DNA of 64,000 nucleotides from an uncultured delta proteobacterium. GTDB lineage: Bacteria; Desulfobacterota; RBG-13-43-22. The position numbers and the translations under genes were made by a program. Shown here piece after piece: positions 33,580 through 53,255 of the stretch. The DNA is taken from positions 1 through 64,000 of the forward strand of contig CAVUPH010000026.1 in NCBI GenBank assembly GCA_963743305.1. The letters run 5' to 3'. The stretch's first letter is position 1, and the number at the start of each line of letters is the position of its first letter. The notes under the pieces were generated by a model that was not told the DNA's origin, searched no databases, and worked only from the letters and a program-made list of their open reading frames with translations.

Positions 33580-34230
33580 TTAGGCGGCGATCCGGCCTTG
33601 TTCGATCCGAATGACCCAGTCGGTGATCCGCTTGACCTGCTCCATATCGTGGGTGGCCATGATCACCAGGGTCCGAGCCTCCCTTCGGAGTTTCAGGATG
33701 ATCTCCTCGATCACCGCGGTATTATGGGGATCGATGGAGGCCGTGGGTTCATCCAGGAAGAGGACTTCCGGTTCCACCACCAAAGCCCGGGCCAGGCCCA
33801 GACGCTGGGTTTCCCCGCTGGAAAGGGTCAGGGCATTCTGATCCTTCTTATGGGCTATCCCCACATAGTCCAGGGCCTCCGAGACTTTATCTTTGATCAG
33901 ACGGGCTGTCCCGCCCCTGATCTTCAGCCCGAAGGCCACATTCTTAAAAACCGAGGTATTAAAAACCCCGACCTTGGGCAAGACCAGGGTGATTCGCCTT
34001 CTGAGTTCCATGTTGGGCGCTATCATCCGGCCCGCGGACTCATAGGTAACGGCTCCCTGGTCAGGACTTTCCAGGAGAGCGCAAATCCTCAGAAAAGTGG
34101 ACTTCCCTCCCCCATTCGGCCCGATCAGACCATAAATCCCGGCCTGTCCAAAGGAATAGGAACAATTTTTGAGAATAGGCTTCCCTTCATATTGCTTGGA
34201 TACGTTGGTTACTTCCAGGGCAAGGCTCAT
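33580..34230 (-). CDS. tupC: Tungstate ABC transporter ATPase
   Basis: GPNGGGKST, LSSGETQR and LDEPTAS; follows tupB. Confidence 0.85.
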   Translation of the reverse strand: MSLALEVTNVSKQYEGKPILKNCSYSFGQAGIYGLIGPNGGGKSTFLRICALLESPDQGAVTYESAGRMIAPNMELRRRITLVLPKVGVFNTSVFKNVAFGLKIRGGTARLIKDKVSEALDYVGIAHKKDQNALTLSSGETQRLGLARALVVEPEVLFLDEPTASIDPHNTAVIEEIILKLRREARTLVIMATHDMEQVKRITDWVIRIEQGRIAA

Positions 34231-34934
34231 CCTTTGCCCCCCAAATCCCCTCGTTTTTGAATCAACCGCAGCGCGAAATTGATCAGCAGGGAGATGGTCA
34301 GCAGAATAGTCCCCAGGGCCAAGGCCAGCTCAAAGTTCCCTTTGTCGGTTTCCAGGGCGATGGTGGTGGTCATGACCCGGGTATAGCCGGCGATATTCCC
34401 CCCCACCATCAGGATCGCGCCTACCTCGGCCATGACCCGTCCGAACCCGGCGATGATCCCGGCCATGATCCCGTAGCGGGCTTCCCTGACCACTAAGATC
34501 GCCTCCTGGGAGGGAGTGGCGCCCAGGGTCTTGGCCGCCTGTCGGATCATGGTCGGAACATTCACAATGGCCGAGTGGCAGAGGGCGCTGACGATGGGAA
34601 AGGCCAGAATGGTCTGGGCAATCACCATCGCCGAGGGAGTATAGAGCAACCCCAGGAACCCGAAAGGTCCTCTCCGGGATAAAAGTAAATAAACAAAAAG
34701 GCCCACCACCACCGGCGGCAGGCCCATAAAGGTATTCAGCAGGTTGATGATCAGACCCCGGCCGGGGAACCTTTTAAGCCCCAACCAGGCGGCCAGGGGA
34801 AGCCCCAGAAGGGTGGCGAGAATCAAGGCCGATCCGGAGACTTTGAGGGACATCCAGATGATCCTCAAGAGTTCCCGGTCCAGATCTCCGATCAGGATCA
34901 AGGCCGCTGAAAAACTATTAAGAATGGAGTCCAC
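34227..34934 (-). CDS. tupB: Tungstate ABC transporter permease
   Basis: MGLPPVVVGL, FGRVMAEVGA and TRVMTTTIALET. Confidence 0.9.
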   Translation of the reverse strand: MDSILNSFSAALILIGDLDRELLRIIWMSLKVSGSALILATLLGLPLAAWLGLKRFPGRGLIINLLNTFMGLPPVVVGLFVYLLLSRRGPFGFLGLLYTPSAMVIAQTILAFPIVSALCHSAIVNVPTMIRQAAKTLGATPSQEAILVVREARYGIMAGIIAGFGRVMAEVGAILMVGGNIAGYTRVMTTTIALETDKGNFELALALGTILLTISLLINFALRLIQKRGDLGGKG

Positions 34935-34993
34935 TCTTGCCTAGCACCCTGAACAGAAACCCGACATTGAAAAAAGGGGTATCCGAAAAATTC

Positions 34994-35833
34994 CTATTTC
35001 GTTTGACCCGCGTTGGGGAAGAAGAGCACGTTCCCGAACTTGTCCTTATAGGAGCCGATGGCCTGCTGTCCCTCTTTGGAGATCAACCAGTTGACAAATT
35101 CCATCGCTTCTTTAAACTTGGCGTGTTTGTATTTTTCCGGGTTGACCGCCATGACGCCATACTGATTGAAGAGCGCCGGGTCCCCCTCCAGGACGATGGT
35201 CATTTCCAGTTTATCTTTGTCCTTGGTGGCCAGCCAGGTGCCCCGGTCGGTCAGGGTATAGCCCTTCTTTTCATTGGCGATCCGCTGTGTCTTTTCCATC
35301 CCCTGTCCGACCTCCAGGTACCAGTCCTGGCCTTTGGGATCCAGTCCCACCTTTTTCCAGAGGGAAAGCTCCATGGTGTTGGTCCCGGATTTATCCCCCC
35401 GGGAGATAAACGGTCCTTTGCCGGCAGCAATTTTGGAGAAGGCCTCGGTGGCCTGCTTCAGCCCCTTTATTTTCAAGGGGTCATTGGCCGGCCCGATAAT
35501 GACAAAATCGTTGTACATGACGTCATGCCGGTTGACGAAATAGCCTTCGGCCGCCGCCTTGAGCTCCAATTCCTTGGCGTGAACCAGGACCACGTCGCAG
35601 TCGCCCCGTTTGCCGATTTCAATGGCCGCTCCGGTGCCCACGGCTACCACATCGACTTTGATCCCGGTCTTTTTCTCAAACAAGGGCAGCAGGTATTCGA
35701 ATAATCCGGAATTCTGGGTGCTGGTGGTCGAGGCGCAACGGATGCGCGTCTGGGCCTGGGCTGTACCATTCAGCAGCAGGGAGCCCGTCATAAAAACAGA
35801 TAAAAACAAAATCATCGCTTTTCTCATCTTCAA
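34994..35833 (-). CDS. tupA: Tungstate-binding periplasmic protein
   Basis: Signal peptide (AQA), STTSTQNSGL, VGTG, VMYNDF, SRGDKSGT and LTDRGT. Confidence 0.92.
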   Translation of the reverse strand: MKMRKAMILFLSVFMTGSLLLNGTAQAQTRIRCASTTSTQNSGLFEYLLPLFEKKTGIKVDVVAVGTGAAIEIGKRGDCDVVLVHAKELELKAAAEGYFVNRHDVMYNDFVIIGPANDPLKIKGLKQATEAFSKIAAGKGPFISRGDKSGTNTMELSLWKKVGLDPKGQDWYLEVGQGMEKTQRIANEKKGYTLTDRGTWLATKDKDKLEMTIVLEGDPALFNQYGVMAVNPEKYKHAKFKEAMEFVNWLISKEGQQAIGSYKDKFGNVLFFPNAGQTK

Positions 35834-35943: not shown

Positions 35944-37380
35944 CTACCAGACCACTTCAAAGCGGGTCAAAATGGCCTGTTCATTATCCATTTTTTTACC
36001 GCTGACGGTAATGGGGTCATCGAACTTGGTATAATAATAATTGACCATGAAGCGCAGCATGTCGTTCGGGTACCAGGTCAGACCCAGGGTATAGCCGGAG
36101 GCTTTGGCGGTGTATTTCTTGGGATCGGCAAATCCCAGGTTCAGGATATCCGGGTCCATATCGATCCACTCATATCGGCCCAGGAGCTGGAAGGCGCCAC
36201 AGTATCCCGATTTCCCCAAAACAAAGGGTTTTTTGGGGGTGATTTGCCCCGGCAGCCCGTTCCGCCAGGGTTCCTCTTCACCGGTCAGAAACCATCCCAA
36301 TGAAGCGTAGCCGGCCGTGTTGTCAAAACTGGCCTTCTTCTTGTTGAAGGTCAAATCATTCAACTGCATTTTCATATATTCGGACTTCAGGGAAACCGGA
36401 CCGACCATCCAGGCCAGTTCACCTCCCAAGCGATTGCGGCTGCCGTCCTGGGTCACCGTATCATTAAACTGCAGAAAGGTCGTTCCGCTTTCGGTTTTGT
36501 ATTGAGACCGCCACCAGTCCGTTGCCGGGGTGGTGGTATGCTGGATCCCGGTGGTGAAGGCCCCGCCAATATGGAAGCCTTTTAAGAATTTGTTGTCCAT
36601 CTTGGAGAAGGGCGCCAGGGTAACCCGACCGGCCACGTCTTTCTGGTCGTCCACATCGCTGGAATTGAGCTTCCGGCCGTTGAAGACCCCCAACTGATAA
36701 TAGAGGAGATCTTTGCTGATATTGCCGTGAAGCATGACGCCCACATCCCGGGAAGGAGCAAAATTATCGGACAGGGAGCGTTCCACGAAATCGATCCAGT
36801 TGTCCGAACTCAATTCTTCCAGACTGAAAGGGACCTTGTATTGCCCGAACATCAATTGGGCATAAGGAATGTAATTGATATTCAAAAAGGCATCGTTGAG
36901 CTGGGCGTTCCCCTGGCCCATCTCGTATTCCACGCTGAAATTATAGTGTTTGTAGAAAGTACCGATGGCGGCCAGCCGGGCCCGCCGGATCAGAAAGGTG
37001 TCGTTATTGGGATTGTCGTTCAGAAATTGTCGGTAGTCGGCATGCAGCCGTCCGGATAGTCGAAGCTTATTTTCACCATCCGCCGACTCCATGGTAAAAC
37101 CCTTTTTGAAATCCACCTTGGCATTTCCCGCCGGGGCCTTTTCTTCCTTGACCTTCTTTTCCAGTGCCCGCAGTCGGGTCAATTCCGCCTCTTCGGCCTC
37201 GGCCTGCTTCTTCATTTCCTGGTACTTTTCCGGGGTAACCATCTTGCTGTTCAGCAGAATTTCCAGGATCTGTTCATTGAGCGATTTGGCCTGGACCCCT
37301 TGGGGCAGGGCCCATATAAAAATTCCGGTCAGTAAGATGAATCCAATAGACCTGCCAAAGGTTCGCACGTTCCCCTTCAT
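35944..37380 (-). CDS. OprO/OprP-family anion-selective porin
   Basis: Signal peptide, coiled coil, IRRARL, GQYKVPFSLEEL, ERS, RDVG, WFLTGE and terminal W. Confidence 0.88.
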   Translation of the reverse strand: MKGNVRTFGRSIGFILLTGIFIWALPQGVQAKSLNEQILEILLNSKMVTPEKYQEMKKQAEAEEAELTRLRALEKKVKEEKAPAGNAKVDFKKGFTMESADGENKLRLSGRLHADYRQFLNDNPNNDTFLIRRARLAAIGTFYKHYNFSVEYEMGQGNAQLNDAFLNINYIPYAQLMFGQYKVPFSLEELSSDNWIDFVERSLSDNFAPSRDVGVMLHGNISKDLLYYQLGVFNGRKLNSSDVDDQKDVAGRVTLAPFSKMDNKFLKGFHIGGAFTTGIQHTTTPATDWWRSQYKTESGTTFLQFNDTVTQDGSRNRLGGELAWMVGPVSLKSEYMKMQLNDLTFNKKKASFDNTAGYASLGWFLTGEEEPWRNGLPGQITPKKPFVLGKSGYCGAFQLLGRYEWIDMDPDILNLGFADPKKYTAKASGYTLGLTWYPNDMLRFMVNYYYTKFDDPITVSGKKMDNEQAILTRFEVVW

Positions 37381-37415
37381 ATCTCCCTCCTTCATTTTGT
37401 AATTTCTCTGCCATA

Positions 37416-37601: not shown

Positions 37602-38106
37602 CTAATCGGGCCGGCCCCGAGGTCCCGCGGCACCCCGGTACAGACCCTCCCCATACCGGTCTTTTCCAAAATCGCCGATGATCTGCTGTCCGCGATCCGA
37701 GGCTAAAAAATTCAGGAACTGTGCCCCCAGCTCCGCCCCGGGGGTGGCCGCGGAAGGCTGGACTAGACCATGGTAGGTATTAACCAGGAAGGGATCTCCT
37801 CGGAAGAGAACCCGTAATTGAGGTAAGCTGCTTTTCTCCATCACCCAGGTGCTGCTGTCGGTGCAGGAGACGCAACGACTCACCGGAACCGGCCTTAATC
37901 CAGCAAAGGGAGGCCCCCGCCTCTTTGGCAAAGGCCTCCCCCAGGACTTTCAGCAACCCTAATTCACCGGGGCTTCCGGTGGCTACCGAAAATGTACGCT
38001 TCCCTGCTCCAAATTCCCCGGTGCAGGCCGCTTGGGCTGATGGTTGAGGCCAGGCGGTAGCCAGTACCAGAGATACCCATAGAGTTATACCGCCGGCTCT
38101 ACGCAT
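37602..38106 (-). pseudogene. TupA-like binding protein with a large internal deletion
   Basis: N-terminal ATGSPGELGLL..KAGSGESL is joined out of frame to TDSSTW..LFRGDPFLVNTY; the SRGD segment is absent. Confidence 0.75.
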
Positions 38107-38115
38107 TTCCCTTGA

Positions 38116-38895
38116 TTACTTGCCCTTGATTACCGAGGGTATGGCCTCGGGATAAAACAAGTTGGTCCCATGCTTCTTATAGCCGGCAATCAGCTTTTGC
38201 CCTTCCAGGGAAGTGACGAAGGTGATAAATTCCATGGCCGCCAGATAATTGGCCTGGGGGAACTTATCCGGACAAACCGCCATGACGCTATAGAAATTCA
38301 GCAGCAAGGGGTCTCCCTTGAAAAGGATCTTCAAATCCAGCTTGGGTTCATATTTCAAGAAAGTCCCTAGATCGGTCAAGGTATAGGCCCCCTGACGATC
38401 CGCCGCGATCAGGGTATCGGCCATATTGGCCCCGGCCTCCTGGTACCAGCTCTTGCCTTTCGGAGTCAGCCCGGCATCGTCCCAGAGGTCCAATTCCCGG
38501 ATGTTGGTCCCCGAATCATCCCCTCGAGAGACAAACAGGCTGCCTTTCTCCGCGATCTCTTCCAAGGCTTCGATGACGGTTTGGGCCTTTTTCACCTTGG
38601 CCGGATCCTTGGCCGGGCCAACAATGGCAAATTCGTTGTACATCACCTCCCGGCGATTTACCCCATACCCTTCAGCAATGAATTTTTCTTCACGAAAGGG
38701 GTCATGGACAAAAAGCACATCGGCTTCTCCCTTTTTGGCCAACCGGATGGCCTTGCCCGTACCCACGGCAATAACCTCCACCTTGACCTGGTATTTCGAA
38801 AATTTCTCATAGGCCGGAATCAAGATGTCAAAAAGGCCTGAATTCTGGGTGCTGGTGGTTGAGGCAACGATCAGCTTGTTTTTTGCTTTAGCCAT
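38116..38895 (-). CDS. TupA paralog lacking a signal peptide
   Basis: MAKAKNKLIVASTTSTQNSGL, VGTG and SRGDDSGT; RBS aaggag just upstream, with AT-rich non-coding DNA before it. Confidence 0.85.
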   Translation of the reverse strand: MAKAKNKLIVASTTSTQNSGLFDILIPAYEKFSKYQVKVEVIAVGTGKAIRLAKKGEADVLFVHDPFREEKFIAEGYGVNRREVMYNEFAIVGPAKDPAKVKKAQTVIEALEEIAEKGSLFVSRGDDSGTNIRELDLWDDAGLTPKGKSWYQEAGANMADTLIAADRQGAYTLTDLGTFLKYEPKLDLKILFKGDPLLLNFYSVMAVCPDKFPQANYLAAMEFITFVTSLEGQKLIAGYKKHGTNLFYPEAIPSVIKGK

Positions 38896-38981
38896 AAGGG
38901 TCTCCTTTTTTGCAGGGTAGTTAAAATATTTATTCTATTAAATTAATACTTTAACCTGGAATGTCAATGGCCTTCCCGTTG

Positions 38982-39905
38982 TTATTTCCCCCCCGGATCA
39001 TCCCCGTGCTGTTTCTTGATAAAATTGTGGTGGGTGGCCGTACCTTCTTTTCGGGCCTGCCCGACGGTCAGGAACTTACCCACCAGGAGCATATGCATTT
39101 CCGGGGGCAGGTTCTGATAATCGATCTCTTTCAAAAACAGGCCGACCGTACTCCGCAGGACTTTTTCTTTTTCCCGGTCTCCGGCGTAAAGCACCACCGC
39201 CACCGGGGTGTTTTTGGAATAATGTTTTTTAAGCTGATCAAACAGCTTGGGATAGTCCAGCTTCATGGTATAAAAAACCATACTGGTTTTATGGGTCATC
39301 AGTTCCCTGTTTCTATCCCGCCGGCCCGGCCAGTCGGTCATGGTTAAAATAACCGAGCTGGTGTCCCAACCATAGGGCGGGCTCATCTTGACCGCGGCGC
39401 TGGAGGCCTGAAAGGCCCCGATCCCGGGGATGATTTCAGAGGGGAAATCCTTGGGCAGCATCTCCAGATAAAAGGTGGTTCCATACATCATGGGGTCCCC
39501 CCACTGGAGGGCCGCCACTTTTTTTCCCTGGGCCACCGCTTCTTTGATCTTGCCGATCATCGACTTTCGGGCTTCGGCGTTCCGGATGGCCTTGGCCCTG
39601 ACTTCGGGGTCTTTCAAGGTCTGCGGATCAATTCCATAATACACCCGGGCGACATGTCCCAGGTACCAGACCGGTTTGTCGCCGATCCACTGTTTCCAAG
39701 CCTCCAGATCCGACTGGTCTTCCAGGATGAAGATATCGGCCTGCTTAACCGTCTCGAGCCCCCGGAGGGTGATCAGGTCCGGGCTGCTGCCCATGCCGAC
39801 GATATAGAATTTTCCTTCGCCGGCCAGCAGAGAGCCGGGAAGAGCCAGCAACAATACCAGCAGGACGCCACTCAGTAACTTTATTAGACGCTCTTCTTTA
39901 AACAT
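38982..39905 (-). CDS. Tetrapyrrole (CobM/CbiF-like) methyltransferase-fold protein with an N-terminal signal peptide
   Basis: LLSGVLLVLLLALPGSLLA precedes FYIVGMGSSPDLITLRG, GDPMMYG, IPGIGAF and TPVAVV. Confidence 0.82.
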   Translation of the reverse strand: MFKEERLIKLLSGVLLVLLLALPGSLLAGEGKFYIVGMGSSPDLITLRGLETVKQADIFILEDQSDLEAWKQWIGDKPVWYLGHVARVYYGIDPQTLKDPEVRAKAIRNAEARKSMIGKIKEAVAQGKKVAALQWGDPMMYGTTFYLEMLPKDFPSEIIPGIGAFQASSAAVKMSPPYGWDTSSVILTMTDWPGRRDRNRELMTHKTSMVFYTMKLDYPKLFDQLKKHYSKNTPVAVVLYAGDREKEKVLRSTVGLFLKEIDYQNLPPEMHMLLVGKFLTVGQARKEGTATHHNFIKKQHGDDPGGK

Positions 39906-39924
39906 ATATCCTTTCCTTTCCAAT

Positions 39925-40698
39925 TTAATTTAATCGGTACACCACCGGGATCGTGATCTGGGCTTCCACGGGGGGACGTGGAAAAGGGGCGCTTTCCATT
40001 AAAGACTCCAGAGCTTTCTGATCCAGGAGTTCATAACCGGAACCCCTGGCCACCCGGGGATCTTTTATCAAGCCATTGGTCGTGATGATAAACGAGAGGA
40101 CGACTTTCCCCTCCCAGCCCAGGCGCCGCGCTATTGCCGGATAGTTGACATTTTTCAGAATCTTGTCCCGAATGTAGGCGAATTGTTCAGCCAGATAACG
40201 GTTTTTGGCCTTCTCGGCGGCACCGCTTTCTAAGTTGGATCCTCCACCACTTCCGCCTTTTCCAATGACCGGTCCGCTCCCGGAAATCCCGGATATACCC
40301 GTTCCACCGGCCTGCCCGTCTGGTTTTCCCGACCCTCCCGGCACATTCGGGACACCCGGCTCTTCCACGGGTACGCTCAAATCCGAAGTGGAATGAATCC
40401 AGGTGGGGGAGGTTCCCGGGACTTTCGGTGCTGCCGGAGGGGGAGGGAGTTTGACCTCTTCCCGGGGAACCGGGGCGGGAACGGCCTGGGATAGTTTTTT
40501 TGATGCCGGCTGGAATGATTTTTTTAGCGGGGTCTCCCGGATTTCTTGAACCGGGGCCGGAGTTGGTTTTTCCAAGTCAAAATCGATGATCACCGGGTGA
40601 TGTTTTTTTATTTCCAGCGTGCTGAGACCCAACACCCCGGCAATCACCACCGCGTGAATGATCAAAGAATATTGGACCCCTCTGGCTTGCGGTTTCAC
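39925..40698 (-). CDS. tonB: Energy transducer TonB
   Basis: SLIIH transmembrane segment, Pro/Gly linker and YPAIARRLGWEGKV...SGYELLD. Confidence 0.92.
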   Translation of the reverse strand: MKPQARGVQYSLIIHAVVIAGVLGLSTLEIKKHHPVIIDFDLEKPTPAPVQEIRETPLKKSFQPASKKLSQAVPAPVPREEVKLPPPPAAPKVPGTSPTWIHSTSDLSVPVEEPGVPNVPGGSGKPDGQAGGTGISGISGSGPVIGKGGSGGGSNLESGAAEKAKNRYLAEQFAYIRDKILKNVNYPAIARRLGWEGKVVLSFIITTNGLIKDPRVARGSGYELLDQKALESLMESAPFPRPPVEAQITIPVVYRLN

Positions 40699-41075
40699 GG
40701 CCGTTCTTCGGTCTGGAGACTGACCCGTTTAAACTGAAGTCCTTTGACCAGATCCAGGACATCGACAAACCCCTGTAGGGCGATCTGCCGATCCGCCCGG
40801 ATCAGGATCGGGATATTCCTATTCTGCCCCTCCAGGCCCTGTCTCAACCCATCCAGGGCCACCGCTTTAGCGTTCAAGAACAGCCCCCCCTGACGGTCGA
40901 TCGCAATGGTCTGGGTCCGCAGCATCTCCCCCTGGCTTTTGACCACTTTGGGCAGATCGATAGGAATCATCCCGGTGGCGATAAAGGATGAAGTGGTCAA
41001 AACGATCGCCAGCAGAACCAGCATGACGTCCACCAGCGGGATTACATTGATATAATCAAACTCTTTTTCTTCCAT
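40695..41075 (-). CDS. exbD: Biopolymer transporter ExbD
   Basis: INVIPLVDVMLVLL and IRAD. Confidence 0.93.
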   Translation of the reverse strand: MEEKEFDYINVIPLVDVMLVLLAIVLTTSSFIATGMIPIDLPKVVKSQGEMLRTQTIAIDRQGGLFLNAKAVALDGLRQGLEGQNRNIPILIRADRQIALQGFVDVLDLVKGLQFKRVSLQTEERP

Positions 41076-41490
41076 TCAGAACGTCCCAGTCCAGGAGCAA
41101 CACCTTGACCTTGCGCAACAGGAAATTATACAAGGTCACCGAGGGAATGGCCACCAGCAATCCCACGGCCGTGGCCTTCAGGGCCAGGGCCAGGCCCACC
41201 ATGATCTTACCGGTATCCATGAACCCTTCCAACCCGATGGTATAAAAGGTCAGCATGATCCCTAAAACGGTCCCGAGCAGGCCGATATAGGGCGCGTTGC
41301 TTCCAATGGTGGCGATCAGGTAAAGTTTTCCGGTCAGTTCCTTTTCCAGACCGGGTTTGTCGGGGAAGTCTTCTAAGCGTATACGCCGATAAACCAGGTG
41401 GCGTTCCAGGGCTACGCTCAGGGCCACGATGCTCAGCAGAATCAGGAACCCGATGATCCCGTAATCGACCGCAATTTTCACCCATTCCAT
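41056..41490 (-). CDS. exbB: TonB system ExbB (short type)
   Basis: NAPYIGLLGTVLGIM and ALKATAVGLLVAIP. Confidence 0.93.
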   Translation of the reverse strand: MEWVKIAVDYGIIGFLILLSIVALSVALERHLVYRRIRLEDFPDKPGLEKELTGKLYLIATIGSNAPYIGLLGTVLGIMLTFYTIGLEGFMDTGKIMVGLALALKATAVGLLVAIPSVTLYNFLLRKVKVLLLDWDVLNGRKRV

Positions 41491-41496
41491 AATTCG

Positions 41497-43568
41497 CTAG
41501 AACTTTCCGGTAACACCTGCCCAGAAAGCCCGTCCAGGACCGGGAAACCCGAATTCCGGCTCGTAGTTGATGTCAAAAATATTGTTCACCGCCACGTACA
41601 CCTCGAACCATTTCAGGATCGGCTGGGTGACCTTGAAGTTGGTCAGGAAATAGTCCCCGGTTTTCAGCGTGGGCACGGTCTTATTCTGGGGTGTGGGAAG
41701 CTGGGAATAGGCCTCGCCCACATACAATCCGATCAGGTCCAGCTTGGTTTTAACCTGAGGGATGACATATTGTACCCCGAGGTCCAACTTGTGCTGGGGG
41801 GAGAAGGTTACGTCGTCGGTGACCCGTCCGTCACTTTCATTCTTAGAATCGATATAGGCGTAATCACCCCGCAGGAGTCAGACCGTCCAACGGATATACG
41901 GCACCGCCCACTTCGATACCCATCCGCTTCACGTTCCCGTAGTTTTGATAGTTGCCGAGAATGCCAGGGGCATCGCGGGAGATCAGGTCGGTGACGTCAT
42001 GATAGAATAAGGCGAACTCCAATTGGCCCACCTTGCCCAGGGCCTGATCCACACCCACCGTATAGTTGATGCTTTTTTCCGAGGCCAGGTCGGTATTGCC
42101 GCCTTTGCTGGAGTAAAGCTGTTGCAGGGTCGGGAAGCGGGATTTACGGGCGATGCGAACCGAAGAGTTTGGTCCCGTCGGCCACCTGGTAATTCAACCC
42201 GATCATGGGATTGAATTCGCTGGTGTTGGGTTGGGGGTTGGAGATCTGGCGCACGAAGTTACCCGTTTTGGAGTCCGTGACGTTCTTCTGGGCCTGAGTC
42301 ACGTCGAACCAGTCGTAGCTGACTCCGCCCACCAGAGATAGATTTTTTACCAGGGTGAATTCGTCTTCCAGACCCCAGGATCCGGTGTAAGACTTGGACT
42401 CCGCAAAGGGCAGATAGGCATCGTCCCGCTCCTGGTGGTTGTCCTCCTTGTAATGCAAGGACATTCGCAGGTTGTTCCATTTCACCGGCTGGTAATCGAC
42501 AAAATAGGAGCCGCCCAGTGATATAATCCTCATAGCGGCTGACGGCGATCTGTTTGGTCAGGGCCGAATCGGCATAAGAAACGTAATCGTCGTTATGATG
42601 GTGATAAAAGAGCTTGGCCTTCATATTCCACTGGTCGTTCAACCGGTGCCTCCCGTCCAGGTCGACCCCCCAATCCTCATAATTCTGGATCCGGACGTTG
42701 GCCGTGGAAAACGCCGGACGGTTGGTAAACACCGGTTGCTATCAGGTGGAGGCCGGCGACCCTTTGTCTCGGTTCAGGTAGTGGAAATTGGCGAAAAATT
42801 CGAATCCTTTATGGGGGTCGCTCCGATTTTGGCCCAGAAGTTTTTGCTGGTTATGTCGGAATTGTCCCGTTTTCCCCCGTCTTCAAAGACGACGGTGCTT
42901 TTCCCCGCCCGGGCTGCGGGTCAGAGTCCCTTTTCTGGGCTTATAATCGTCCGAGAGATTCCAACCGTCCGACTTCAGGTAGCTGGCACTCAGCCACCAG
43001 TTCCAGATACCGGTCTTCATGCCGTGGGTGGCCGAGAGGCGGTAGGTGTTGTTTTCGCTGAATTCCATGGTGGCGCTGGTGAACGGTTTTTCCGAGGGTT
43101 GCCGGGTGATGATGTTGATCACCCCGGCCAGGGCATTGGCCCCGTACAGGACCGAGGCGCCGCCCTTGATGATCTCGATGCGGGCTACGTTGTCGGTGGG
43201 AATCTGGTTTAGGTCCAGTTTCCCGACATTGGTTTCGTAGTAGGGGACCCCGTCCATCAGGATCAGCGCCTCGGATTGATCGAACCCTCGAATCGAGATA
43301 TTGGGTTCGTTCTTTCGACCGGTGGTCACCGGATCCCCGGCGCATAGCTTAGGGCCTCGGCTACGGTTTTGCTGTTGGTCGCCGGGATGTCTTCGGCGGT
43401 GATCTCGGCGATCACCGTCGTCTCCCGGACCTTGTCCCCCGGCACCACGATCTCACCCAGGGTGTAGGTCTCGAATTCCTTGGGCATCTTTCCCTCGGCC
43501 CAGACCAGACCGGTCCCCCAAAAGAAGAACAGCGTTAACAGCAAACCCATCTTTTCTCTCTTCCTCAT
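41497..43568 (-). CDS. TonB-dependent receptor, multiple frameshifts
   Basis: Signal peptide, TonB-box-like LGEIVV, plug ISIRG..DGVP..RIEIIKGGASVLYGANALAGVINII and C-terminal NNIFD..PGPGR..GKF. Confidence 0.9.
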
Positions 43569-43574
43569 TTTCTC

Positions 43575-44901
43575 CTCCTCATTTTTGGTATTGGCTCTTT
43601 TCAATTTTCGCGACCAGAAAAAATAAAACGGCAACCCCGATAAGGCGATGACCAGCCCCAACAACGAGGTCTGGGGCTTCTCCCAGGAAATCTGCCAGGC
43701 AATCCAGCCGTAGGTCCCGACAAACAGAAGCGGCGTCAGGGGATAACCCCAGGTCCGGTAAGGTCGAAATAGGGCCGGCCTCCTGGCCCGGAGAGTCAAG
43801 TGCGCCAGACCCGTCGCCATCGAGGACACCAGCATGATGAGCACCACATAGCTCAAAAGCTGGTCGAAGCTTCCCCAAAGGACCATACCGGCCGCCAGCA
43901 GTCCCGTGGGTCAAAATCGATCCGTAGGGCGTCCGGTGCCGGGGATGAAGTTTTTTCAAGAACGACCAAAATAGACCGTCCTCGGCCATGGCGTAAAAAA
44001 TCCGTGAGCAGGCCAGGAGGGTGGCATTGATCCCGGAGGCGATGGCCAGTACGATCACCAGGGAGATCGAGTCCGGCGTAAGGCCTGCTGAACAGGGTTT
44101 CCGCCGCCAGTTGACCTACGTTGACCACCCCCTGAAGTTGCGGGATCGGGACGGCATACAGGTAGGTAATGTTCATCAAGGCGTACAATACGGTTACGAT
44201 CAGGGTCCCCGAGAGCAGCGATCCGGGGAACGTTTTTCTCCGGGTCCTTGACTTCACTGCCCACATAGGCCGAGGCGAACCAACCGCTGTAGGTAAAAAT
44301 GACGGCGATCATCGGCGAGGCGAAGAGTTTGGTCCAGGATAGGGTCCCGCCCGGGTCCCCGGAAAAATGTTGCCAACTCCCCTTCCCCAATAGTAGCCCA
44401 CCCAAGACGAACCGACCGATGAGCAACAGGGCGCCCAGGGTAAGATATCCTGGGTGGTGCTGCCCCAGCGTATCCCGCGGTAATTGATCCAGGTAAACAA
44501 GGCGATCACCGCCAGGGCCGGTACCTTTTCCGAACCCGAGCCAATCCCCGGCAGAAACGGTTTCAGGTAACTGACCAGCGCCAAGGTCAAGGCGGCCATT
44601 GAACCCGGAATAATGATCCAAAAGTTGACCCAGCCAAGCAAAAAACCGGCCCAGGACCCGTAGGCCTCCTTGAGGAACTGATAGTCGCCGCCGGCTCGGG
44701 GAAACAAACCGGCCAGTTCGGCATAGGTCAGGGCCCCGCAAAGCGTGAGCAACCCCCCGATGATCGGGATGCCGACAACCAGAAGGGCTGGGGCAGCTCA
44801 CCGGCCAGAAATCCGCTGGTGGTGAAGATGCCGGCGCCCACCACGTTGCCCACCACCAGCAATATGGCATCCGACAGTCTAATGTTTCGATTGAGCGGCA
44901 A
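43575..44901 (-). CDS. APC-family amino acid/polyamine permease, frameshifted
   Basis: GNVVGAGIF, GALTYAELAGLFPRAGGDY, FTYSGW, SRIFYAMAEDG and RPYRTWGYP. Confidence 0.88.
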
Positions 44902-44916
44902 GGATCGGTTTCCCGG

Positions 44917-46702
44917 TTAATGGTGGCGATCCAAAGTCTTGGCCTCCAGGCAGGCCCCGATGTGGGAAATCATGCCCAGCCACTTTTCCTTTTCTTCCCA
45001 GGCGATGGACAGGGCCTTGTCCAGCGTGGTCTTCACCAGGCGCTCGCTGTCGGCAAAGCCCACCCGATAGGCAAAATAAACCGGGTGGCCGGCGGGTAAT
45101 AGCCGCCCAACAGATCCAGCAGGCCTTTTAAATCCTTCAACCCCATGAACAGGGCCAGGGTGTCCCCCTTCTCGACCGCCGCCTTAAGCAACGCCGGGTT
45201 GTCCTTAAGGCCCAGGAGGTGGACAGGAACAACCGCCCTCCCGGCAGGCCAGCTCCTTCCCGATGAGCGCGTTGGCGGCATTGAAGGCGCTGATCCCCGA
45301 GATGAACTCCTTTTCCTGATCTCCCAACCGGGCGGCGATCTGGCGCAGACTCCCATAGATAAAGGGATCCCCGTATTCCAGCAGGGCCACGTTCTTCCCC
45401 TGTTGCAGTTCAGCCTGAATCAGTTTTACCGCTTCTCGATCTTTTTTTCCAGCAGGGTCTCTTTTTCCTTCGGGGACAGCTTGCCCAGCTCCTTTCCATA
45501 AATGGGCTCCGGCATCAAATACTTGAAAGGATCAAACAGGACCGGGCGCCCTCCGATGTAAGCGGACAGACGTTTTTTCAGATCGTCGCTGCAGACGAAG
45601 ACATCAGCCCGGCCCAGGGCCGACAAGGCCTGCTGGGTCAACAGGTCCGGATCGGCGCAGCCCATACTGATCAAGATAGGCCTTGGGTTTCCGGAGCAGG
45701 TTGATGACCTCGATCCGGGAAACGGCCTTCACCCAGCGATCGGCCGACAGGTCGTCGGGGATCACCAGTTTAAACTTGCCGTCCGCCTGAATGGGCTTTC
45801 CTTCCTTGCGGTCGGCGATGATGATTCGCCGGCCCAGGGGATTGAGCAACAGCTCCCCCATGGAGATCAGGGACCGGTACCCGTCCGGTGCCGAAATGAC
45901 CACGGCCAAATTCAGGTCCTTGGTTACCCCGGCCCGGGTGAGCACCTCCATCAAGGGGACCCCTTCAAATCGGAGCAGACCGTGATAGCCTCTCCCCTCG
46001 CCCGCGACCTTGCCCGTCACCTCCACCCGGGGATAGGCCGATAAATCGGTCACGGTCAGCGGGGGTTTGCGGCTCCTGAACCACCGTCAGATCGGGGGCA
46101 AAAAGCTCCTTCATCCGTTTCACCGGCATTTCGAAATGCAGGTCGACCACCTCGATACTGGTCACGTTTTCCAGAGACCGCTCGGTATAGAAATCGTTGG
46201 CCACCACCAGCCTGGGTAAGCCCACCTTTCTTTTCAAGGGATCGTGCCAGACCCGGTAAACCTCCGCTGGGTGACAGGCAGCGCAGTCTCTGAGAGGCAT
46301 GACCGGCTCCGTCTGGAAGGCCACGACGATGTCCGCCGGGTTGCGATAAAACACCTCCCCCCAGACAAGGCCGCCTGTTTCTCCCTCCCGGTTACGGACC
46401 ACGATGGCCATATCCAGCGGTTTACTAAAGGCCGATTCCCCTTTTTGGACCACCGCGGTCTCCAGCAGCTTCCTTCAACGACACCCCCCGGTAGTTGAAA
46501 ACCCCGTGAAAAGTCTTGTCCCGGGTCAGTTCATTCAGGCGCACCGGAATCGATTGGAAGCGAGCCAGATCGGAGAGGCTGAATTGAAGCGGTTGTTTGA
46601 CGGCGCCAATGATATGCAGGCTTTCCAAGGTACCGGCCTCCACCCCGGGAAGCGATCAACAGGAGACTCAGACCAATAAACGACCCATTTCATCTTCTTC
46701 AT
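44917..46702 (-). CDS. Exported multidomain protein: molybdopterin-oxidoreductase-like domains, CxxCH and C-terminal tetrapyrrole methylase fold (frameshifted)
   Basis: Fragments read GLSLLLIAS..VEA; GAVKQPLQFSLSDL..YRGVSL; DCAACHP; FEGVPL..APDGY..LVIPDD..RWVKAV; MGCADPDLLT; GDPFIYG; ISGISAFNAA. Confidence 0.72.
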
Positions 46703-47481
46703 AAAACGATACTCCTTTTTTAAACGGATTTTCGCTGCGGAAAGTACCAGACCAGGGCCAGGATCAGGACAATGAACCCCCAGAAAATGAAGGTGCCGGC
46801 CGGGATCCTGTTTGATGACCACCTTCAACTCCTGACCCGGTTGGGCCTTTTTGGCCATATCCAGATGAAAGGTATATCCCTTCCAGGAGACCGGTTGCAT
46901 GATCTGGAGCTCCCGGGATTTCAGGCTGCCGGCGGCGTCAAACAGCAGAACCGCCCGGCATTGTTTGTAGCATCCCCCGGATAGGTTCCGGACCCGGATA
47001 GCGCTGACAATCTTGACTGATCAACCGGACCATCCCGACGCCCGGAAGCTGGATACCGGTTTTCGGTTTGTTCGGAACGACCCCGTTGAAGCCCACGACC
47101 AGGCTGATCCAGTGCCCGGAAAGGATGACCAGGAAACATAAATGGATCAAGGAAGGGCTGAGTCGGAACGGAAAACGTTCGGACACCGATCTGTCTCCTT
47201 AAAGGCCATAAATGGATCAGTCGTTTCAAAGCGCAGACCACGGTATTGACGCCTAGAAAGAACAGCAGGAGAATAAGACTTCCCAGCCACCAGAGTTGGT
47301 TGATCTGGGAACGACCCACCTGTTGAACCCACTCTTGAATCAACATCTGGTTCAGCGGATTGAAGAAAGTAAAATTAAATTTCAAATAATAGGAACCGAT
47401 CCCCAGGTTGGCAGAAATCAACAAGAGCAACCAGAAGTTGACTTTGACCTCGCCGCAGAAATCCCAAATCTTTTGAAACAT
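46700..47481 (-). CDS. ResB/CcsB-like cytochrome c biogenesis protein, frameshifted
   Basis: N-terminal transmembrane segments, NTVVC, SLIHLCFLVILSGH and terminal QDPG plus a transmembrane segment; follows the ccsA-like gene. Confidence 0.7.
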
Positions 47482-47485
47482 TCCG

Positions 47486-48246
47486 CTATCCCCCGATCCG
47501 TGGCGGCAGGTTGGTTTCGGTCAAGAACCCTAAGTAGCCGTAAAGCAGGATCATTGCCAGCCCGACCAGCGAGAAGCGGGCTTCGGTCCGCAGATTCCAG
47601 ACCGGAAGATAGCGAAGATGCAGCAAAGCCGCATAAAAACACCAGAGTGAAGCGGATTGCAGATGACGGGCGCTCCAGTGCAAAGGGGTGGCCCAGCCTA
47701 GAAAGGCCCAGTAGGCGCCCACCACCTGGGCGCCGCTGAAAAAGATAAACCCCCAGACCAGGAAGGAATGGAAAAGGCGGGCCGTTTCGTCCTGCCGCAA
47801 GTAGATCAGGCCCAACATGCTCCCCGCGATAAAACAGGCGTGGCTGATAACCTCCAGCATAAAGAACAGCCAAGAAAACAAGGTCTGGGTTTTCGGATTG
47901 GGCGGAACCACCCCCAGGGGAAAAAGAAAAGCCAATACCGAGAAGACCACCAGGGGAATCAGTAGCCCGCCGGCGAGAGAGGCTTTCCCGGGAATGAATC
48001 TGAACCCCAAAGCCAGCGCCGCCAGGCACCAGGGCAGGAAAAAACTTTCTTCAAAAAGGGCATAGGGGGACCAAATCCCGACAAGCCCTCCCCGGTTGAC
48101 CAGAAAGACGGTGTGTCCCAGGAAACCGAGCACCAGGCAAGACGAATGGGAATGTATCTCCGCCGGAATAGCCAGGCGACCATTGAAGCGGCATAAAAAC
48201 CCGTTACGAGCGGAAACCCGTTATTTATTGTTATCGAGATCATCAA
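47486..48246 (-). CDS. ccsA: CcsA/ResC-like cytochrome c assembly protein (variant WWD motif), one frameshift
   Basis: GAYWAFLGWATPLHWSARH...WCFYAALLHLR with multiple transmembrane segments. Confidence 0.78.
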
Positions 48247-50566: not shown

Positions 50567-50595
50567 GGGATTGAGGATAGAGTACTTGTCGGGAC

Positions 50596-50749
50596 TTAGA
50601 ACCCGTCAAGAAATAAGCTGTACAATACCGCTAATATCTCCGTTCATGCTGAGCCTGTCGAAGCATGGCCGTATCGTTCACCCTTCGACCAGCTCAGGGC
50701 GAACGGTTGTAGGGCCGCTTTGTCAAGGTTATTTGTTTACAGATCCTTA
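50596..50749. mobile_element. MITE-like element, copy 1 (imperfect ~21-nt TIRs, internal hairpin)
   Basis: Left end ttagaacccgtcaagaaataa versus reverse-complemented right end taaggatctgtaaacaaataa; internal ccgttcatgctgagcctgtcgaag...cttcgaccagctcagggcgaacgg. Confidence 0.7.
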
Positions 50750-50826
50750 GTACTTTGTTGTCAATTGGAAGATAATCTTCCAATTGACAGGGAAAGATTT
50801 AGGTAACCTAACCGATCTGGAGTCGG

Positions 50827-50979
50827 TTAGAACCCGTCAAGAAATAAGCTGTACAATACCGCTAATATCTCCGTTCATGCTGAGCCTGTCGAAGCATTGC
50901 CGTATCGTTCACCCTTCGACAAGCTCAGGGCGAACGATTGTAGGGCCGTTTGTCAAGGTTATTTGTTTACAGATCCTTA
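50827..50979. mobile_element. MITE-like element, copy 2 (near-identical direct repeat)
   Basis: Differs from copy 1 at about 4 positions. Confidence 0.7.
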
Positions 50980-51023
50980 TCGGCAGAAAGCCTGAAGCCA
51001 ACTATTTCCCTCCTAAAGCCTGG

Positions 51024-51649: not shown

Positions 51650-51662
51650 CTAATGCCCCCCA

Positions 51663-52571: not shown

Positions 52572-52580
52572 AGTTTTAAA

Positions 52581-52636
52581 CTAGACTCGCCTGGCTGGCT
52601 TGACCAAAGCCTGTTCTTCTTTGCCCAGACAAGCCC
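52581..52636 (-). pseudogene. Stub matching the 3' end of the adjacent methyltransferase
   Basis: ACLGKEEQALVKPARRV* versus ACLIKEEQALYSVKPARKRLQ*. Confidence 0.65.
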
Positions 52637-52644
52637 GTATGGAC

Positions 52645-53072: not shown

Positions 53073-53120
53073 TTCACGCCTCCGAGGATTCCTAATATCG
53101 CCGAACCGACCCTTCCCTTT

Positions 53121-53255
53121 CTATCTTCTCCGGCATTTTTGTAGATTTCGATAAGCAATCCCTGGCCGCCACCCAAACCGCTGATGTGCCGGCATGATCT
53201 GCCGGTAGTCCTGCTGGATCTGCTTCTCCCGCAGCGCCAGATCGGAGATGCCCAT
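53121..53255 (-). pseudogene. Stub matching the 5' end of the DUF1156 methylase
   Basis: MGISDLALREKQIQQDYRQIMPAHQRFGWRPG versus IADLALREKQIQQNYRPIIAVHKWFARRPG. Confidence 0.75.

What the first reader, a model, noticed from the sequence alone, without database searches (positions are those of the whole stretch)
38982..39905. SAM-dependent tetrapyrrole methylase fold carrying a Sec-type signal peptide
Seen in an intact ORF: a charged n-region and the hydrophobic LLSGVLLVLLLALPGSLLA precede the methylase motifs (GMG..PDLIT, GDP..YG, IPGI), which look retained. Known: SAM is made in the cytoplasm and this family normally acts there. Inference: the protein is either a repurposed periplasmic binding protein for SAM/SAH or a tetrapyrrole, or an extracytoplasmic methylase. 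It may heterodimerise with the methylase domain of the CxxCH protein, since the family is dimeric.
Basis: partly seen in the sequence, partly recalled or inferred. Interest (0 to 1): 0.8.

Follow-up and report, generated by a model that had tools for sequence, protein, structure and literature searches.

The report
Exported methylase-fold protein in tungsten/molybdenum uptake locus
This gene encodes a protein with the fold of a vitamin-B12-pathway methyltransferase that carries a conserved export signal and sits in a tungstate/molybdate uptake locus, which points to an undescribed periplasmic step in how bacteria acquire these trace metals.

Summary
ORF 38982-39905 (-) is intact. It has a ribosome-binding site, a tripartite signal peptide ending in an AxA-type cleavage site, and a TP_methylase (class III methyltransferase) domain that starts immediately afterwards. 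The signal peptide is conserved: 109 of 115 alignable homologues have Ala at -3 before GKF. The family is about 300 aa long, 55-90% identical across seven diderm phyla, and nested in a larger, mostly signal-bearing clade. It is not CbiF: it scores 80 bits against a 260-bit cut-off, and the genome has a true CbiF elsewhere.

Context changes the interpretation. In this genome the gene follows TBDR-ExbB-ExbD-TonB and lies among the genome's only TupA-like genes. Within 10 kb of the homologue, 24 of 74 loci carry ModA/TupA/ModB or a molybdate-sensor regulator, 27 carry a TonB-dependent receptor, and 17 carry an exported SUOX-fold domain resembling the pterin-binding protein PruR, sometimes fused to a paralogous methylase.

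Best reading (about 0.45): a periplasmic enzyme or ligand handler in TonB-dependent Mo/W acquisition, acting on a pterin- or sulfur-type ligand. Catalysis, ligand and SAM supply are all inferred. Only a 2012 genome paper remarks on such genes. Interest 0.7.

The parts
38982..39905 (-). Target ORF: exported TP_methylase-fold protein, 307 aa plus stop (P0001)
   Evidence: PF00590 at 119.7 bits; best NCBIfam hit cobM_cbiF at 80.5 bits against a 259.65 cut-off. AF2 model pLDDT 80.6, and CbiF/CobM are the top Foldseek hits.
39822..39905 (-). Signal peptide, residues 1-28; predicted cleavage LLA|GEGKF
   Evidence: n-region, h-region and AxA-type site conserved in 109 of 115 motif-bearing homologues.
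39925..40698 (-). TonB
   Evidence: TonB_C, E 1e-17.
40695..41075 (-). ExbD
   Evidence: PF02472, E 2e-22.
41056..41490 (-). ExbB
   Evidence: PF01618, E 1.5e-27.
41497..43886 (-). TonB-dependent receptor, read in five frame-shifted pieces in this assembly
   Evidence: tblastn with the intact Smithella orthologue. Searches give the orthologue's Plug and barrel domains.
43579..44901 (-). APC-family amino-acid/organocation permease, frame-shifted here
44944..46702 (-).
46726..48133 (-). ResB-like (46726-47481) and CcsA/CcsB-like (47486-48133) pair
38116..38895 (-). TupA-like binding protein directly downstream, with no signal peptide in the ORF
   Evidence: PBP_like_2; TupA 230 bits (cut-off 400).
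37602..38106 (-). Fragments of a further, signal-bearing ORF between the TupA-like genes. No Pfam match; its identity as a binding protein is inferred only from position and a blast cluster
   Evidence: (0 Pfam families for both fragments).
35944..37395 (-). Anion-selective porin (Porin_O_P)
   Evidence: E 7e-47.
33580..35833 (-). TupA-like binding protein (34994-35833), permease (34227-34934) and ATPase (33580-34230)

Best explanation
The ORF encodes a Sec-exported periplasmic protein with the class III (tetrapyrrole-methylase) methyltransferase fold. It belongs to a tightly conserved family that has left cobalamin biosynthesis.

It is a component of TonB-dependent molybdenum/tungsten acquisition modules. 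A TonB-dependent receptor imports a Mo/W-bearing species. In the periplasm, PruR-like SUOX-fold domains (free, or fused to a paralogous methylase) and this protein bind that species and chemically process it, most likely by methyl transfer to a pterin/dithiolene- or sulfur-type ligand. The freed oxyanion is then taken by TupA/ModA and the ABC transporter.

Shown: the fold, the conserved export signal, the distinction from CbiF, and the genomic linkage.
Inferred: periplasmic location (about 0.9), a role in Mo/W acquisition (about 0.7), actual methyltransferase activity (about 0.35), the identity of the ligand, and the source of SAM (possibly the operon's APC permease).
For: Fold:
- PF00590 at 119.7 bits.
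- AF2 model pLDDT 80.6; top PDB folds are CbiF and CobM.

Export:
- Signal peptide conserved in 109 of 115 motif-bearing homologues.
- Named source records for all 74 loci are from diderm phyla.
- The family sits in a 99% SH-aLRT clade of 53 rows, most of them signal-bearing, and 67 of 98 full-length representatives have a crude signal peptide.

Not CbiF:
- 80.5 bits against a 259.65 cut-off.
- A true CbiF (332 bits) lies in a four-methylase cob cluster on another contig.

Mo/W link:
- The genome's only two TupA-like matches lie within 4 kb of the gene.
- 24 of 74 loci have ModA/TupA/ModB or an HTH+PBP_like regulator within 10 kb, across at least five phyla.
- modA and modB score above the NCBIfam cut-offs.
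- 27 of 74 loci have a TonB-dependent receptor.

Pterin-type partner:
- 17 of 74 loci have an exported SUOX-like domain. In L015 it lies between the receptor and the methylase.
- 12 of 35 long representatives are SUOX-like-methylase fusions.
- The partner model (pLDDT 85.4) matches PruR pterin-binding proteins at TMt 0.70-0.77 and has no conserved Cys.
- PruR is a Sec-exported pterin binder (PMC11194511, passages read).

Other fusions point to periplasmic metal or sulfur handling: DUF4198 in 3 representatives and rhodanese in 1.

Possible SAM pocket:
- The GDP Asp is invariant in 75 of 75 sequences and the PGxxA Ala is present in at least 90%.
- The equivalent residues are vital for AdoMet binding in RsmI (PMC5053481 abstract). 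The equivalence is by motif position only and was not aligned here.
Against: - 21 of 74 loci show none of the linked genes, and Mo/W genes are present in only 24.
- Motif 1 has lost the Gly-Asp of GxGPGD and motif 3 is altered, so SAM binding or catalysis may be changed or lost.
- No periplasmic SAM pool or SAM exporter is known (established knowledge). A search for 'periplasmic methyltransferase' plus S-adenosylmethionine found 0 papers.
- The receptors' nearest curated families are heme/hemoglobin receptors, far below cut-off.
- No Moco riboswitch was found in the window or in 7 loci.
- The genome makes Moco itself: moaA at 383 bits and MoeA are present. Cofactor salvage is therefore not a necessity.
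- In this assembly the receptor, permease and fusion genes are frame-shifted.
Confidence: 0.45

Rival explanations
1. Non-catalytic periplasmic ligand-binding protein (pseudo-enzyme). The methylase fold is kept as a binding scaffold for a pterin, tetrapyrrole, nucleoside-like compound or oxyanion, and the protein acts as a chaperone or shuttle between the receptor and the ABC transporter.
For: - Motif 1 is one residue shorter and lacks the Gly-Asp, and motif 3 is altered. Sister exported clades keep the canonical motifs.
- The family sits on a long stem (0.89) in the tree, consistent with a shift of function.
- No periplasmic SAM source is known.
- Many invariant Lys/Arg/His residues (K32, K71, K77, R113, K173, R195, H271, K277, R285) could bind an anionic ligand.
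Against: - The GDP motif, the PGxxA Ala and the overall two-domain cleft are retained.
- Conservation of 55-90% identity across phyla is more typical of an enzyme with a precise active site.
- An APC permease that could carry SAM-like organocations lies within 10 kb in 12 of 74 loci.
Confidence: 0.3
2. Periplasmic tetrapyrrole handling. The receptor imports, or the CcsBA-like pair exports, a heme, corrinoid or novel porphyrinoid that this protein binds or methylates. [quoted passage not shown]
For: - The closest characterised relatives all act on tetrapyrroles.
- The receptors' best curated hits are heme/hemoglobin receptor subfamilies.
- A ResB/CcsA-like pair is present in 8 of 74 loci, even where the fusion has no CxxCH.
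- A cytochrome c7-like gene is present in 18 of 74 loci.
- PMC3543383, section 17 (passage read).
Against: - No cobalamin riboswitch in the window or in 7 loci.
- No heme- or B12-type binding protein or FecCD-type transporter among the recurrent neighbour clusters, whereas Mod/Tup genes recur.
- The receptor hits are far below cut-off (174 against 317 bits).
- The fusion partners are SUOX-like, DUF4198 and rhodanese domains, not tetrapyrrole-binding domains.
Confidence: 0.12
3. Obligate subunit of a heterodimer with the methylase domain of the SUOX-like/CxxCH fusion protein. The stand-alone protein would supply one half of a composite active site.
For: - Class III methyltransferases are dimers. 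RsmI is described as homodimeric in PMC5053481, and the CbiF/CysG structures are listed with two chains.
- The two paralogues share one operon in the Syntrophales loci L001, L005, L007, L008 and L009 and in the window.
Against: - Most loci (57 of 74) have no SUOX-like gene or fusion nearby, so the family cannot depend on it in general.
- The two domains are only about 25% identical.
- The idea was not tested here.
Confidence: 0.1
4. Ordinary cytoplasmic CbiF-like paralogue whose start codon is miscalled. The hydrophobic stretch would not be translated, or would be an artefact.
For: Source pipelines annotate homologues as 'precorrin-4 C11-methyltransferase'.
Against: - The only downstream start (M38) removes the invariant first strand.
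- A ribosome-binding site precedes ATG 39905.
- The signal peptide is conserved in 109 of 115 homologues.
- The score is far below the CbiF cut-off, and a true CbiF lies elsewhere in the genome.
Confidence: 0.03

Closest known systems
CbiF / CobM, (cobalt-)precorrin-4 C11-methyltransferase (PDB 1cbf, 2cbf, 3ndc, 4e16)
   Same: Same two-domain class III methyltransferase fold. These are the best sequence and fold matches. The GDP motif and the PGxxA Ala are retained.
   Different: - Carries a signal peptide.
- Has about 25 extra residues between strand 2 and helix 100-125 (query 65-112 against CbiF 39-61).
- Motif 1 is shortened and has no Gly-Asp.
- Scores 80 bits against a 260-bit cut-off.
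- Lies outside the cob cluster, in a Tup/TonB locus.
PruR, periplasmic pterin-binding SUOX-fold protein of Agrobacterium, Vibrio and Klebsiella (PDB 7kom, 7rkb, 7kp2, 7kos; PMC11194511)
   Same: This concerns the partner domain, not the target. It is small, Sec-exported, has the SUOX fold, lacks the Mo-ligating Cys, and matches PruR at TMt 0.70-0.77.
   Different: - PruR pairs with the DcpA diguanylate cyclase and controls biofilm formation.
- Here the domain pairs with, or is fused to, an exported methylase and lies beside receptors and Mo/W transporters.
- Sequence identity to PruR is only 12-19%.
- Pterin binding was not tested.
Three 'tetrapyrrole methyltransferases' beside ligand-gated channels in Pelobacter carbinolicus (PMC3543383, 2012)
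   Same: The same kind of gene context was noted: methyltransferases similar to cobalamin-pathway enzymes, one of them also a c-type cytochrome, next to TonB-dependent channels and molybdopterin-binding proteins (passage read).
   Different: It is only a genome-annotation remark. The passages I read do not mention export or periplasmic location, and the proposed role was novel porphyrin synthesis. Table S4, which holds the gene list, could not be seen. I did not check orthology to the present family.
TupABC / ModABC tungstate and molybdate ABC transporters
   Same: They are encoded beside the target in this genome and in 24 of 74 loci.
   Different: Classical Tup/Mod systems are described without a TonB-dependent receptor or any periplasmic enzyme (recalled, no call). 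The window's TupA-like proteins score below the equivalog cut-off (230-245 against 400 bits).
CbiK(P), the periplasmic paralogue of cobaltochelatase in Desulfovibrio (recalled from memory, no call)
   Same: It is a precedent for a cobalamin-pathway enzyme fold that gained a signal peptide and a new periplasmic role.
   Different: It has a different fold (chelatase) and binds heme. It was not examined here.

Membership tests
Pfam TP_methylase (PF00590) / class III methyltransferase fold | Profile match above the gathering score | tested here: met
   119.7 bits against 27.8, residues 32-255.
Pfam TP_methylase (PF00590) / class III methyltransferase fold | Two-domain alpha/beta fold like CbiF, CobA or CysG | tested here: met
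   AF2 model pLDDT 80.6. Foldseek top hits are 2cbf, 3nei, 1cbf and 4e16, E about 1e-15, TMt 0.71-0.75.
Pfam TP_methylase (PF00590) / class III methyltransferase fold | Canonical AdoMet-contacting loops: GxGxGD, GDP, PG[IV][ST][SA] | tested here: inconclusive
   GDP is invariant (D137 in 75 of 75) and A164 is present in at least 90%. Motif 1 is GMG[ST]xPD, one residue shorter and without Gly-Asp, and motif 3 is PGIGA. Sister exported clades keep the canonical motifs.
Pfam TP_methylase (PF00590) / class III methyltransferase fold | SAM binding and methyl transfer | not testable with these tools
   Needs ITC or an enzyme assay.
CbiF/CobM precorrin-4 C11-methyltransferase (TIGR01465) | Score above the equivalog cut-off | tested here: not met
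   80.5 bits and 68.8 bits against 259.65.
CbiF/CobM precorrin-4 C11-methyltransferase (TIGR01465) | Cytoplasmic enzyme encoded with other cob/cbi genes | tested here: not met
   The protein has a signal peptide. The genome's true CbiF (332 bits) lies in a four-methylase cluster on contig C30. The target lies in a TonB/Tup locus.
Sec/SPase I-exported periplasmic proteins | Positive n-region, hydrophobic core of 10-20 residues, small residues at -3/-1 | tested here: met
   My own heuristic on 121 proteins: 115 alignable, Ala at -3 from GKF in 109, A/V/L at -5 in 106, median core 17 residues, net positive n-region in 109. SignalP was not available.
Sec/SPase I-exported periplasmic proteins | Demonstrated extracytoplasmic location | not testable with these tools
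   Needs a PhoA fusion, cell fractionation, or the N-terminus of the mature protein.
Mo/W acquisition locus (Tup/Mod) | Conserved adjacency to Mo/W binding proteins, permeases or Mo-sensing regulators | tested here: met
   Both TupA-like genes of the genome lie within 4 kb of the target. 24 of 74 loci have such genes, and 20 of the 49 loci of at least 15 kb. modA scores 213/62.5 and modB 227/182.6. The remaining 50 of 74 loci show no such gene.
Mo/W acquisition locus (Tup/Mod) | Mo/W-dependent regulation or phenotype | not tested
   No Moco riboswitch in the window or in 7 loci. No RNA run holds the stretch.

The most novel reading that the evidence does not exclude
Exported class III methyltransferases form a periplasmic 'ligand-stripping' step of trace-metal acquisition. 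Mo/W arrives through a TonB-dependent receptor bound to sulfur or dithiolene ligands, either as thiomolybdate/thiotungstate in sulfidic habitats or as molybdopterin-type cofactor released by dead cells. It is held by a PruR-like SUOX-fold domain. The methylase then S-methylates the ligand, in analogy to urothione formation from molybdopterin (recalled from memory), and this frees the oxyanion for TupA/ModA. SAM is supplied to the periplasm by the operon's APC permease. Sister fusions to DUF4198 and rhodanese would extend the same logic to other metals and to sulfane sulfur.
Probability: 0.12. Interest if true: 0.9.

Novelty: new variant of a known kind. Interest (0 to 1): 0.7.

Why it matters
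All characterised class III (tetrapyrrole-type) methyltransferases are cytoplasmic and SAM-dependent. A large, strongly conserved, signal-bearing clade implies one of two things: SAM-dependent chemistry outside the cytoplasm, which would need a so far unknown SAM supply, or re-use of this fold as a periplasmic binding module.

The repeated linkage to TonB-dependent receptors, Mod/Tup transporters, molybdate-sensor regulators and PruR-like pterin-binding domains bears on an open question. How do anaerobes and soil bacteria with a high demand for W/Mo enzymes (syntrophs, Acidobacteria of peat) obtain these metals when they are complexed or sulfidised? Is there an energised outer-membrane route for Mo/W? 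The finding names concrete genes to test. It would also correct the automatic annotation 'precorrin-4 methylase', which inflates predictions of B12 synthesis in metagenomes.

Tried and rejected
- Complex prediction of the Acidobacterial methylase (P0102, residues 25-301) with its adjacent PruR-like protein (P0272, residues 25-179). Result: no answer, score 0.00, controls not run. This gives no information either way.
- Sequencing runs: no RNA holder was listed. Three DNA runs of one study hold only 0.00-0.10 of the sampled words. The laid contigs cover small pieces only. I used them only to compare indel positions, not for expression or habitat.
- Rfam scans of the window and of 7 related loci for cobalamin or Moco riboswitches: none found.
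- Earlier notes of this scan, searched by place, by sequence and by words: nothing to show.
- ESM Atlas: only the family's own TP_methylase clusters came back, with no new lead.
- Literature:
  - 'tetrapyrrole methylase' + signal peptide + periplasmic: 0 papers.
  - TonB-dependent / molybdate / modABC / methyltransferase: 69 papers, none relevant among the 20 listed.
  - periplasmic / precorrin-4 / TonB / signal peptide: nothing relevant among the 15 listed.
  - 'tetrapyrrole methylase' / molybdopterin / periplasm: only the PruR papers were useful.
  - 'periplasmic methyltransferase' + S-adenosylmethionine: 0 papers.
  - TunR / tungstate-responsive: no relevant paper in the library, so the comparison of the HTH+PBP_like regulator with TunR is recalled only.
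  - The Geobacter metallireducens genome paper had nothing on this family.
- A miscalled start codon was considered and rejected (see the rivals).
- A lipoprotein was considered and rejected for this family. There is no Cys at the cleavage site. Some sister clades do have a lipobox-like LLSAC.
Full report
**The object.**
On the minus strand, 38982-39905 is an intact ORF of 307 codons plus stop (P0001). A GGAAAGGA ribosome-binding site lies 6 nt upstream of the ATG at 39905. A TTG at 39923, directly after the TonB stop, would add six residues. Residues 1-28 form a charged n-region, a hydrophobic core and ...LLA. The methylase fold begins at G31-K-F-Y-I-V-G-M-G. Pfam TP_methylase matches residues 32-255 (E 2.2e-34, 119.7 bits against 27.8). 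An AlphaFold2 model built on 75 family sequences has mean pLDDT 80.6 and pTM 0.67. It has a helical N-terminal segment (residues 2-20) and the expected alternating strands and helices. Its best PDB matches are CbiF (2cbf, 1cbf), CobM (3nei, 3ndc) and 4e16, followed by CysG, NirE and SUMT (E about 1e-15, TMt about 0.7).

**Is the signal peptide real?**
A word-indexed search found 592 proteins of about 300 aa, 56-90% identical among the 120 listed. I examined 121 proteins (query plus those 120).
- 115 carry the GK[FL].. start of the fold.
- In those 115, Ala stands three residues before the Gly in 109, and A/V/L five residues before it in 106. This gives an AxA|xxGKF site.
- The uncharged core has a median of 17 residues with mean hydropathy 2.2.
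- The 12 residues before the core are net positive in 109 of 115.
- Six proteins lacked the motif and three had truncated or weak N-termini.

The sequence of this region varies while its signal-peptide properties are kept. The first in-frame start after the hydrophobic stretch is M38, inside the GMG motif. Using it would delete the invariant first strand. The source records of 74 related loci come from Thermodesulfobacteriota/'Deltaproteobacteria' (Smithella, Desulfatiglandales), Acidobacteriota, Armatimonadota, Spirochaetota, Planctomycetota, Myxococcota and Pseudomonadota. All are diderm phyla. No SignalP run was possible, so export is a strong inference and not a demonstration.

**Not CbiF.**
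The best NCBIfam model is cobM_cbiF, but at 80.5 bits against a cut-off of 259.65. All other cobalamin and siroheme methylase models score lower. The window's genome (4.9 Mb, 43 contigs) has eight PF00590 matches. Four lie in tandem on contig C30 and one lies on C29. The other three are on the window's own contig: the target itself and two pieces of the broken fusion. One of the C30 matches is a true CbiF at 332 bits. Compared with CbiF:
- the protein has about 25 extra residues (query 65-112 against CbiF 39-61);
- its glycine-rich loop is one residue shorter and lacks the Gly-Asp (GMG[ST]xPDL against GAGPGDPDL);
- its third motif is PGIGAF rather than PGV[TS]S.

The GDP Asp (D137) is invariant in 75 of 75 sequences and A164 is present in at least 90%. 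Residues at these motif positions are vital for AdoMet binding in RsmI (abstract and passages of PMC5053481). The equivalence is by motif position and was not aligned here.

**A large exported clade.**
An exhaustive HMMER search of 1.84 billion cluster representatives gave 880 clusters at E<=1e-3, 171 at E<=1e-10 and 25 at E<=1e-30. The family itself collapses to one 50% cluster. It is followed by relatives at 30-39% identity. Of the 149 listed representatives other than the family's own cluster, 98 look full-length, and 67 of those have a crude signal peptide. The relatives I read keep the canonical GxGPGD and PG[IV]S[SC] motifs. I built a quick maximum-likelihood tree (77 rows, LG+G4, SH-aLRT only). 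Representatives under 230 aa, over 340 aa or without an initial Met were left out. In it the family is a 100%-supported clade on a long stem (0.89). That clade is nested in a 99%-supported clade of 53 rows dominated by signal-bearing proteins. The genome's own CbiF falls outside. Among the 35 representatives of at least 400 aa:
- 12 are SUOX-like-methylase fusions; 8 of these carry CxxCH, as does one of the unknown-domain fusions listed below;
- 3 are DUF4198-methylase fusions;
- 1 is a rhodanese-methylase fusion;
- 3 have an unknown N-terminal domain;
- 11 are tandem methylases;
- 5 have no recognised extra domain.

DUF4198 includes a periplasmic zinc-capture protein (PMC12663993, search listing only).

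**Context in the window.**
The minus-strand order runs as follows.
- CcsA-like and ResB-like genes (46726-48133).
- A signal-bearing fusion of two SUOX-like domains, CAACH and a TP_methylase domain (44944-46702).
- An APC permease.
- A TonB-dependent receptor (41497-43886).
- ExbB, ExbD and TonB.
- The target.
- A TupA-like protein without a signal peptide (38116-38895).
- Fragments of a further signal-bearing ORF without a Pfam match.
- An anion porin.
- A TupA-like binding protein, a permease and an ATPase.

The only two TupA-like matches in the whole genome lie within 4 kb of the target. ModA is on another contig. Random placement would put a gene this close to the single Tup locus about 0.2% of the time (my estimate: 8 kb out of 4.9 Mb).

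**Context elsewhere.**
I called ORFs in 74 loci (three of them distant relatives at 26-31% identity), clustered them, and then searched each cluster back with tblastn. Representatives were named with Pfam and NCBIfam.

| Feature within 10 kb | Loci (of 74) |
|---|---|
| ModA, TupA, ModB/TupB or HTH_3+PBP_like regulator | 24 |
| TonB-dependent receptor (including Oar-like) | 27 |
| Cytochrome c7-like gene | 18 |
| Exported SUOX-like domain, free or fused | 17 |
| APC permease | 12 |
| ResB/CcsA-like pair | 8 |
| CbiQ/EcfT | 5 |
| Any feature in rows 1-6 (CbiQ/EcfT not counted) | 53 |
| None of those | 21 |

The Mo/W genes occur in at least five phyla, and in 20 of the 49 loci of at least 15 kb. 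modA (213 against 62.5 bits) and modB (227 against 182.6) pass their curated cut-offs, and modC (275 against 285) just misses. The regulator's C-terminal part matches the PBP-like domain of MoeA-type 'molybdopterin biosynthesis protein'. In L015 the order, all on one strand, is receptor, SUOX-like protein (179 aa), methylase, regulator. Since a genome holds only a few Mo/W transporter loci, I estimate that about 1% of random 20-kb windows would contain one. That compares with 32% observed.

**The partner domain.**
The small protein of L015 belongs to a family of at least 113 proteins of about 180 aa, all with signal peptides in the alignment and with no conserved Cys. Pfam Oxidored_molyb matches some members above the cut-off (45.1 and 26.6 bits against 24) and others below it. 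Its model (pLDDT 85.4) matches the Moco domains of nitrate reductase, YedY and sulfite dehydrogenases. At comparable size it matches the PruR pterin-binding proteins 7kom (TMt 0.77), 7rkb (0.70, solved with neopterin), 7kp2 and 7kos. PruR is a Sec-exported SUOX-fold protein that lacks the Mo-ligating Cys and binds pterins in the periplasm (PMC11194511, passages of the introduction and of sections 7, 10-12, 14 and 15). The fusions and adjacencies therefore couple an exported methylase domain to a probable periplasmic pterin- or Moco-type binding domain.

**Prior mention.**
The Pelobacter carbinolicus genome paper says three things. [quoted passage not shown] These channels lie near molybdopterin-binding proteins or Moco/cobalamin riboswitches. 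The enzymes may make novel porphyrins (PMC3543383, section 17 passage). Its Table S4 could not be opened. The other searches found no functional study and no statement that such proteins are exported.

**What it most likely does.**
Shown: the fold, the conserved export signal, the distinction from CbiF, and the linkage to TonB-dependent import, Mo/W ABC transport and sensing, and SUOX-like domains.

Inferred: the protein works in the periplasm on whatever the receptor brings in, upstream of TupA/ModA. I commit to a ligand-processing role, methyl transfer to a pterin/dithiolene- or sulfur-type Mo/W ligand, at about 0.35 for catalysis, within a Mo/W-acquisition role at about 0.7. The APC permease may be the SAM route. 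This rests on two points: yeast Sam3 and E. coli MmuP are APC-type carriers of SAM and S-methylmethionine (recalled from memory), and the operon's permease gives only a weak 29-bit hit to the MmuP model.

Arguments against:
- the altered motif 1;
- the absence of any known periplasmic SAM pool;
- the 21 of 74 loci without any linked gene;
- receptors whose nearest, weak, curated relatives are heme receptors;
- no Moco riboswitch;
- a complete-looking Moco pathway in the genome.

The main rival is a non-catalytic binding protein (0.3). A tetrapyrrole role is less likely (0.12).

**State of the partner genes in this assembly.**
Between 41.5 and 48.2 kb the window differs from its 91.5%-identical relative L001 by 39 gap openings, mostly single bases. 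These break the receptor, the permease and the fusion into pieces. From ExbB to the TupA-like gene the only length differences inside ORFs lie in the signal-peptide region. Small short-read contigs from two other runs agree with L001 and against the window at nine of these places (44222, 44776, 45082, 45209, 45229, 45235, 45239, 45673, 46792). These contigs are low-depth and partly from related strains. Consensus errors are therefore the likelier explanation, but real decay is not excluded.

Noticed in passing
window 41497-48200: There are dense single-base indels relative to the 91.5%-identical locus L001 (39 gap openings in 6.7 kb). They break the TonB-dependent receptor, the APC permease and the SUOX-like/CxxCH/methylase fusion. 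The adjacent 38010-41493 has none inside ORFs apart from the signal-peptide region. Short-read contigs from other runs side with L001 at nine positions. This is probably local consensus error.
   Followed up: partly
window 38116-38895 (-): The TupA-like protein directly downstream of the target starts at MAKAKNKLIVASTTS... with no signal peptide, and the 86-nt gap upstream leaves no room for one. It may be a cytoplasmic tungstate-binding protein or a sensor. Fragments of a further, signal-bearing ORF without a Pfam match follow at 37602-38106.
   Followed up: no
L009:609-3911 (also L005, L007, L008): The ResB-like/CcsA-like pair is kept upstream of the fusion gene even in Smithella loci whose fusion protein (P0122) has no CxxCH motif. 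The pair may therefore do something other than attach heme to that protein.
   Followed up: no
representatives P0136, P0156, P0159, P0252: Signal-bearing TP_methylase domains also occur fused to DUF4198 (a periplasmic metal-capture family) and to a rhodanese domain. This suggests a wider role of exported methylase domains in periplasmic metal or sulfur handling.
   Followed up: partly
L013, L032, L043, L049, L069: A CbiQ/EcfT-like ECF-transporter component, in L069 together with a fused double ATPase, lies near the receptor and the methylase. An organic micronutrient may also be imported.
   Followed up: no
L063:8974-11638 and L030:8713-9903: Stand-alone family members are flanked in L063 by DUF364/DUF4213 ('putative heavy-metal chelation') and a metallo-beta-lactamase-fold gene, and in L030 by a Nitro_FeMo-Co domain protein and DUF1847.
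   Followed up: partly
L010, L020, L022, L027, L059, L061, L068: In Armatimonadota and some other loci a DUF1559 protein with a prepilin-type N-terminal methylation motif sits directly beside the methylase gene. It may be chance, since this family is abundant in those phyla.
   Followed up: no
window 48362-55399 (-): Upstream of the operon lie a family-B DNA polymerase (734 aa), an N6/N4 DNA methylase and an Eco57I-like methylase. This may be a mobile or defence island.
   Followed up: no
L005:16944-17115 (+): A group II intron D1-D4 domain match (66 bits) lies downstream of the operon in a related locus.
   Followed up: no
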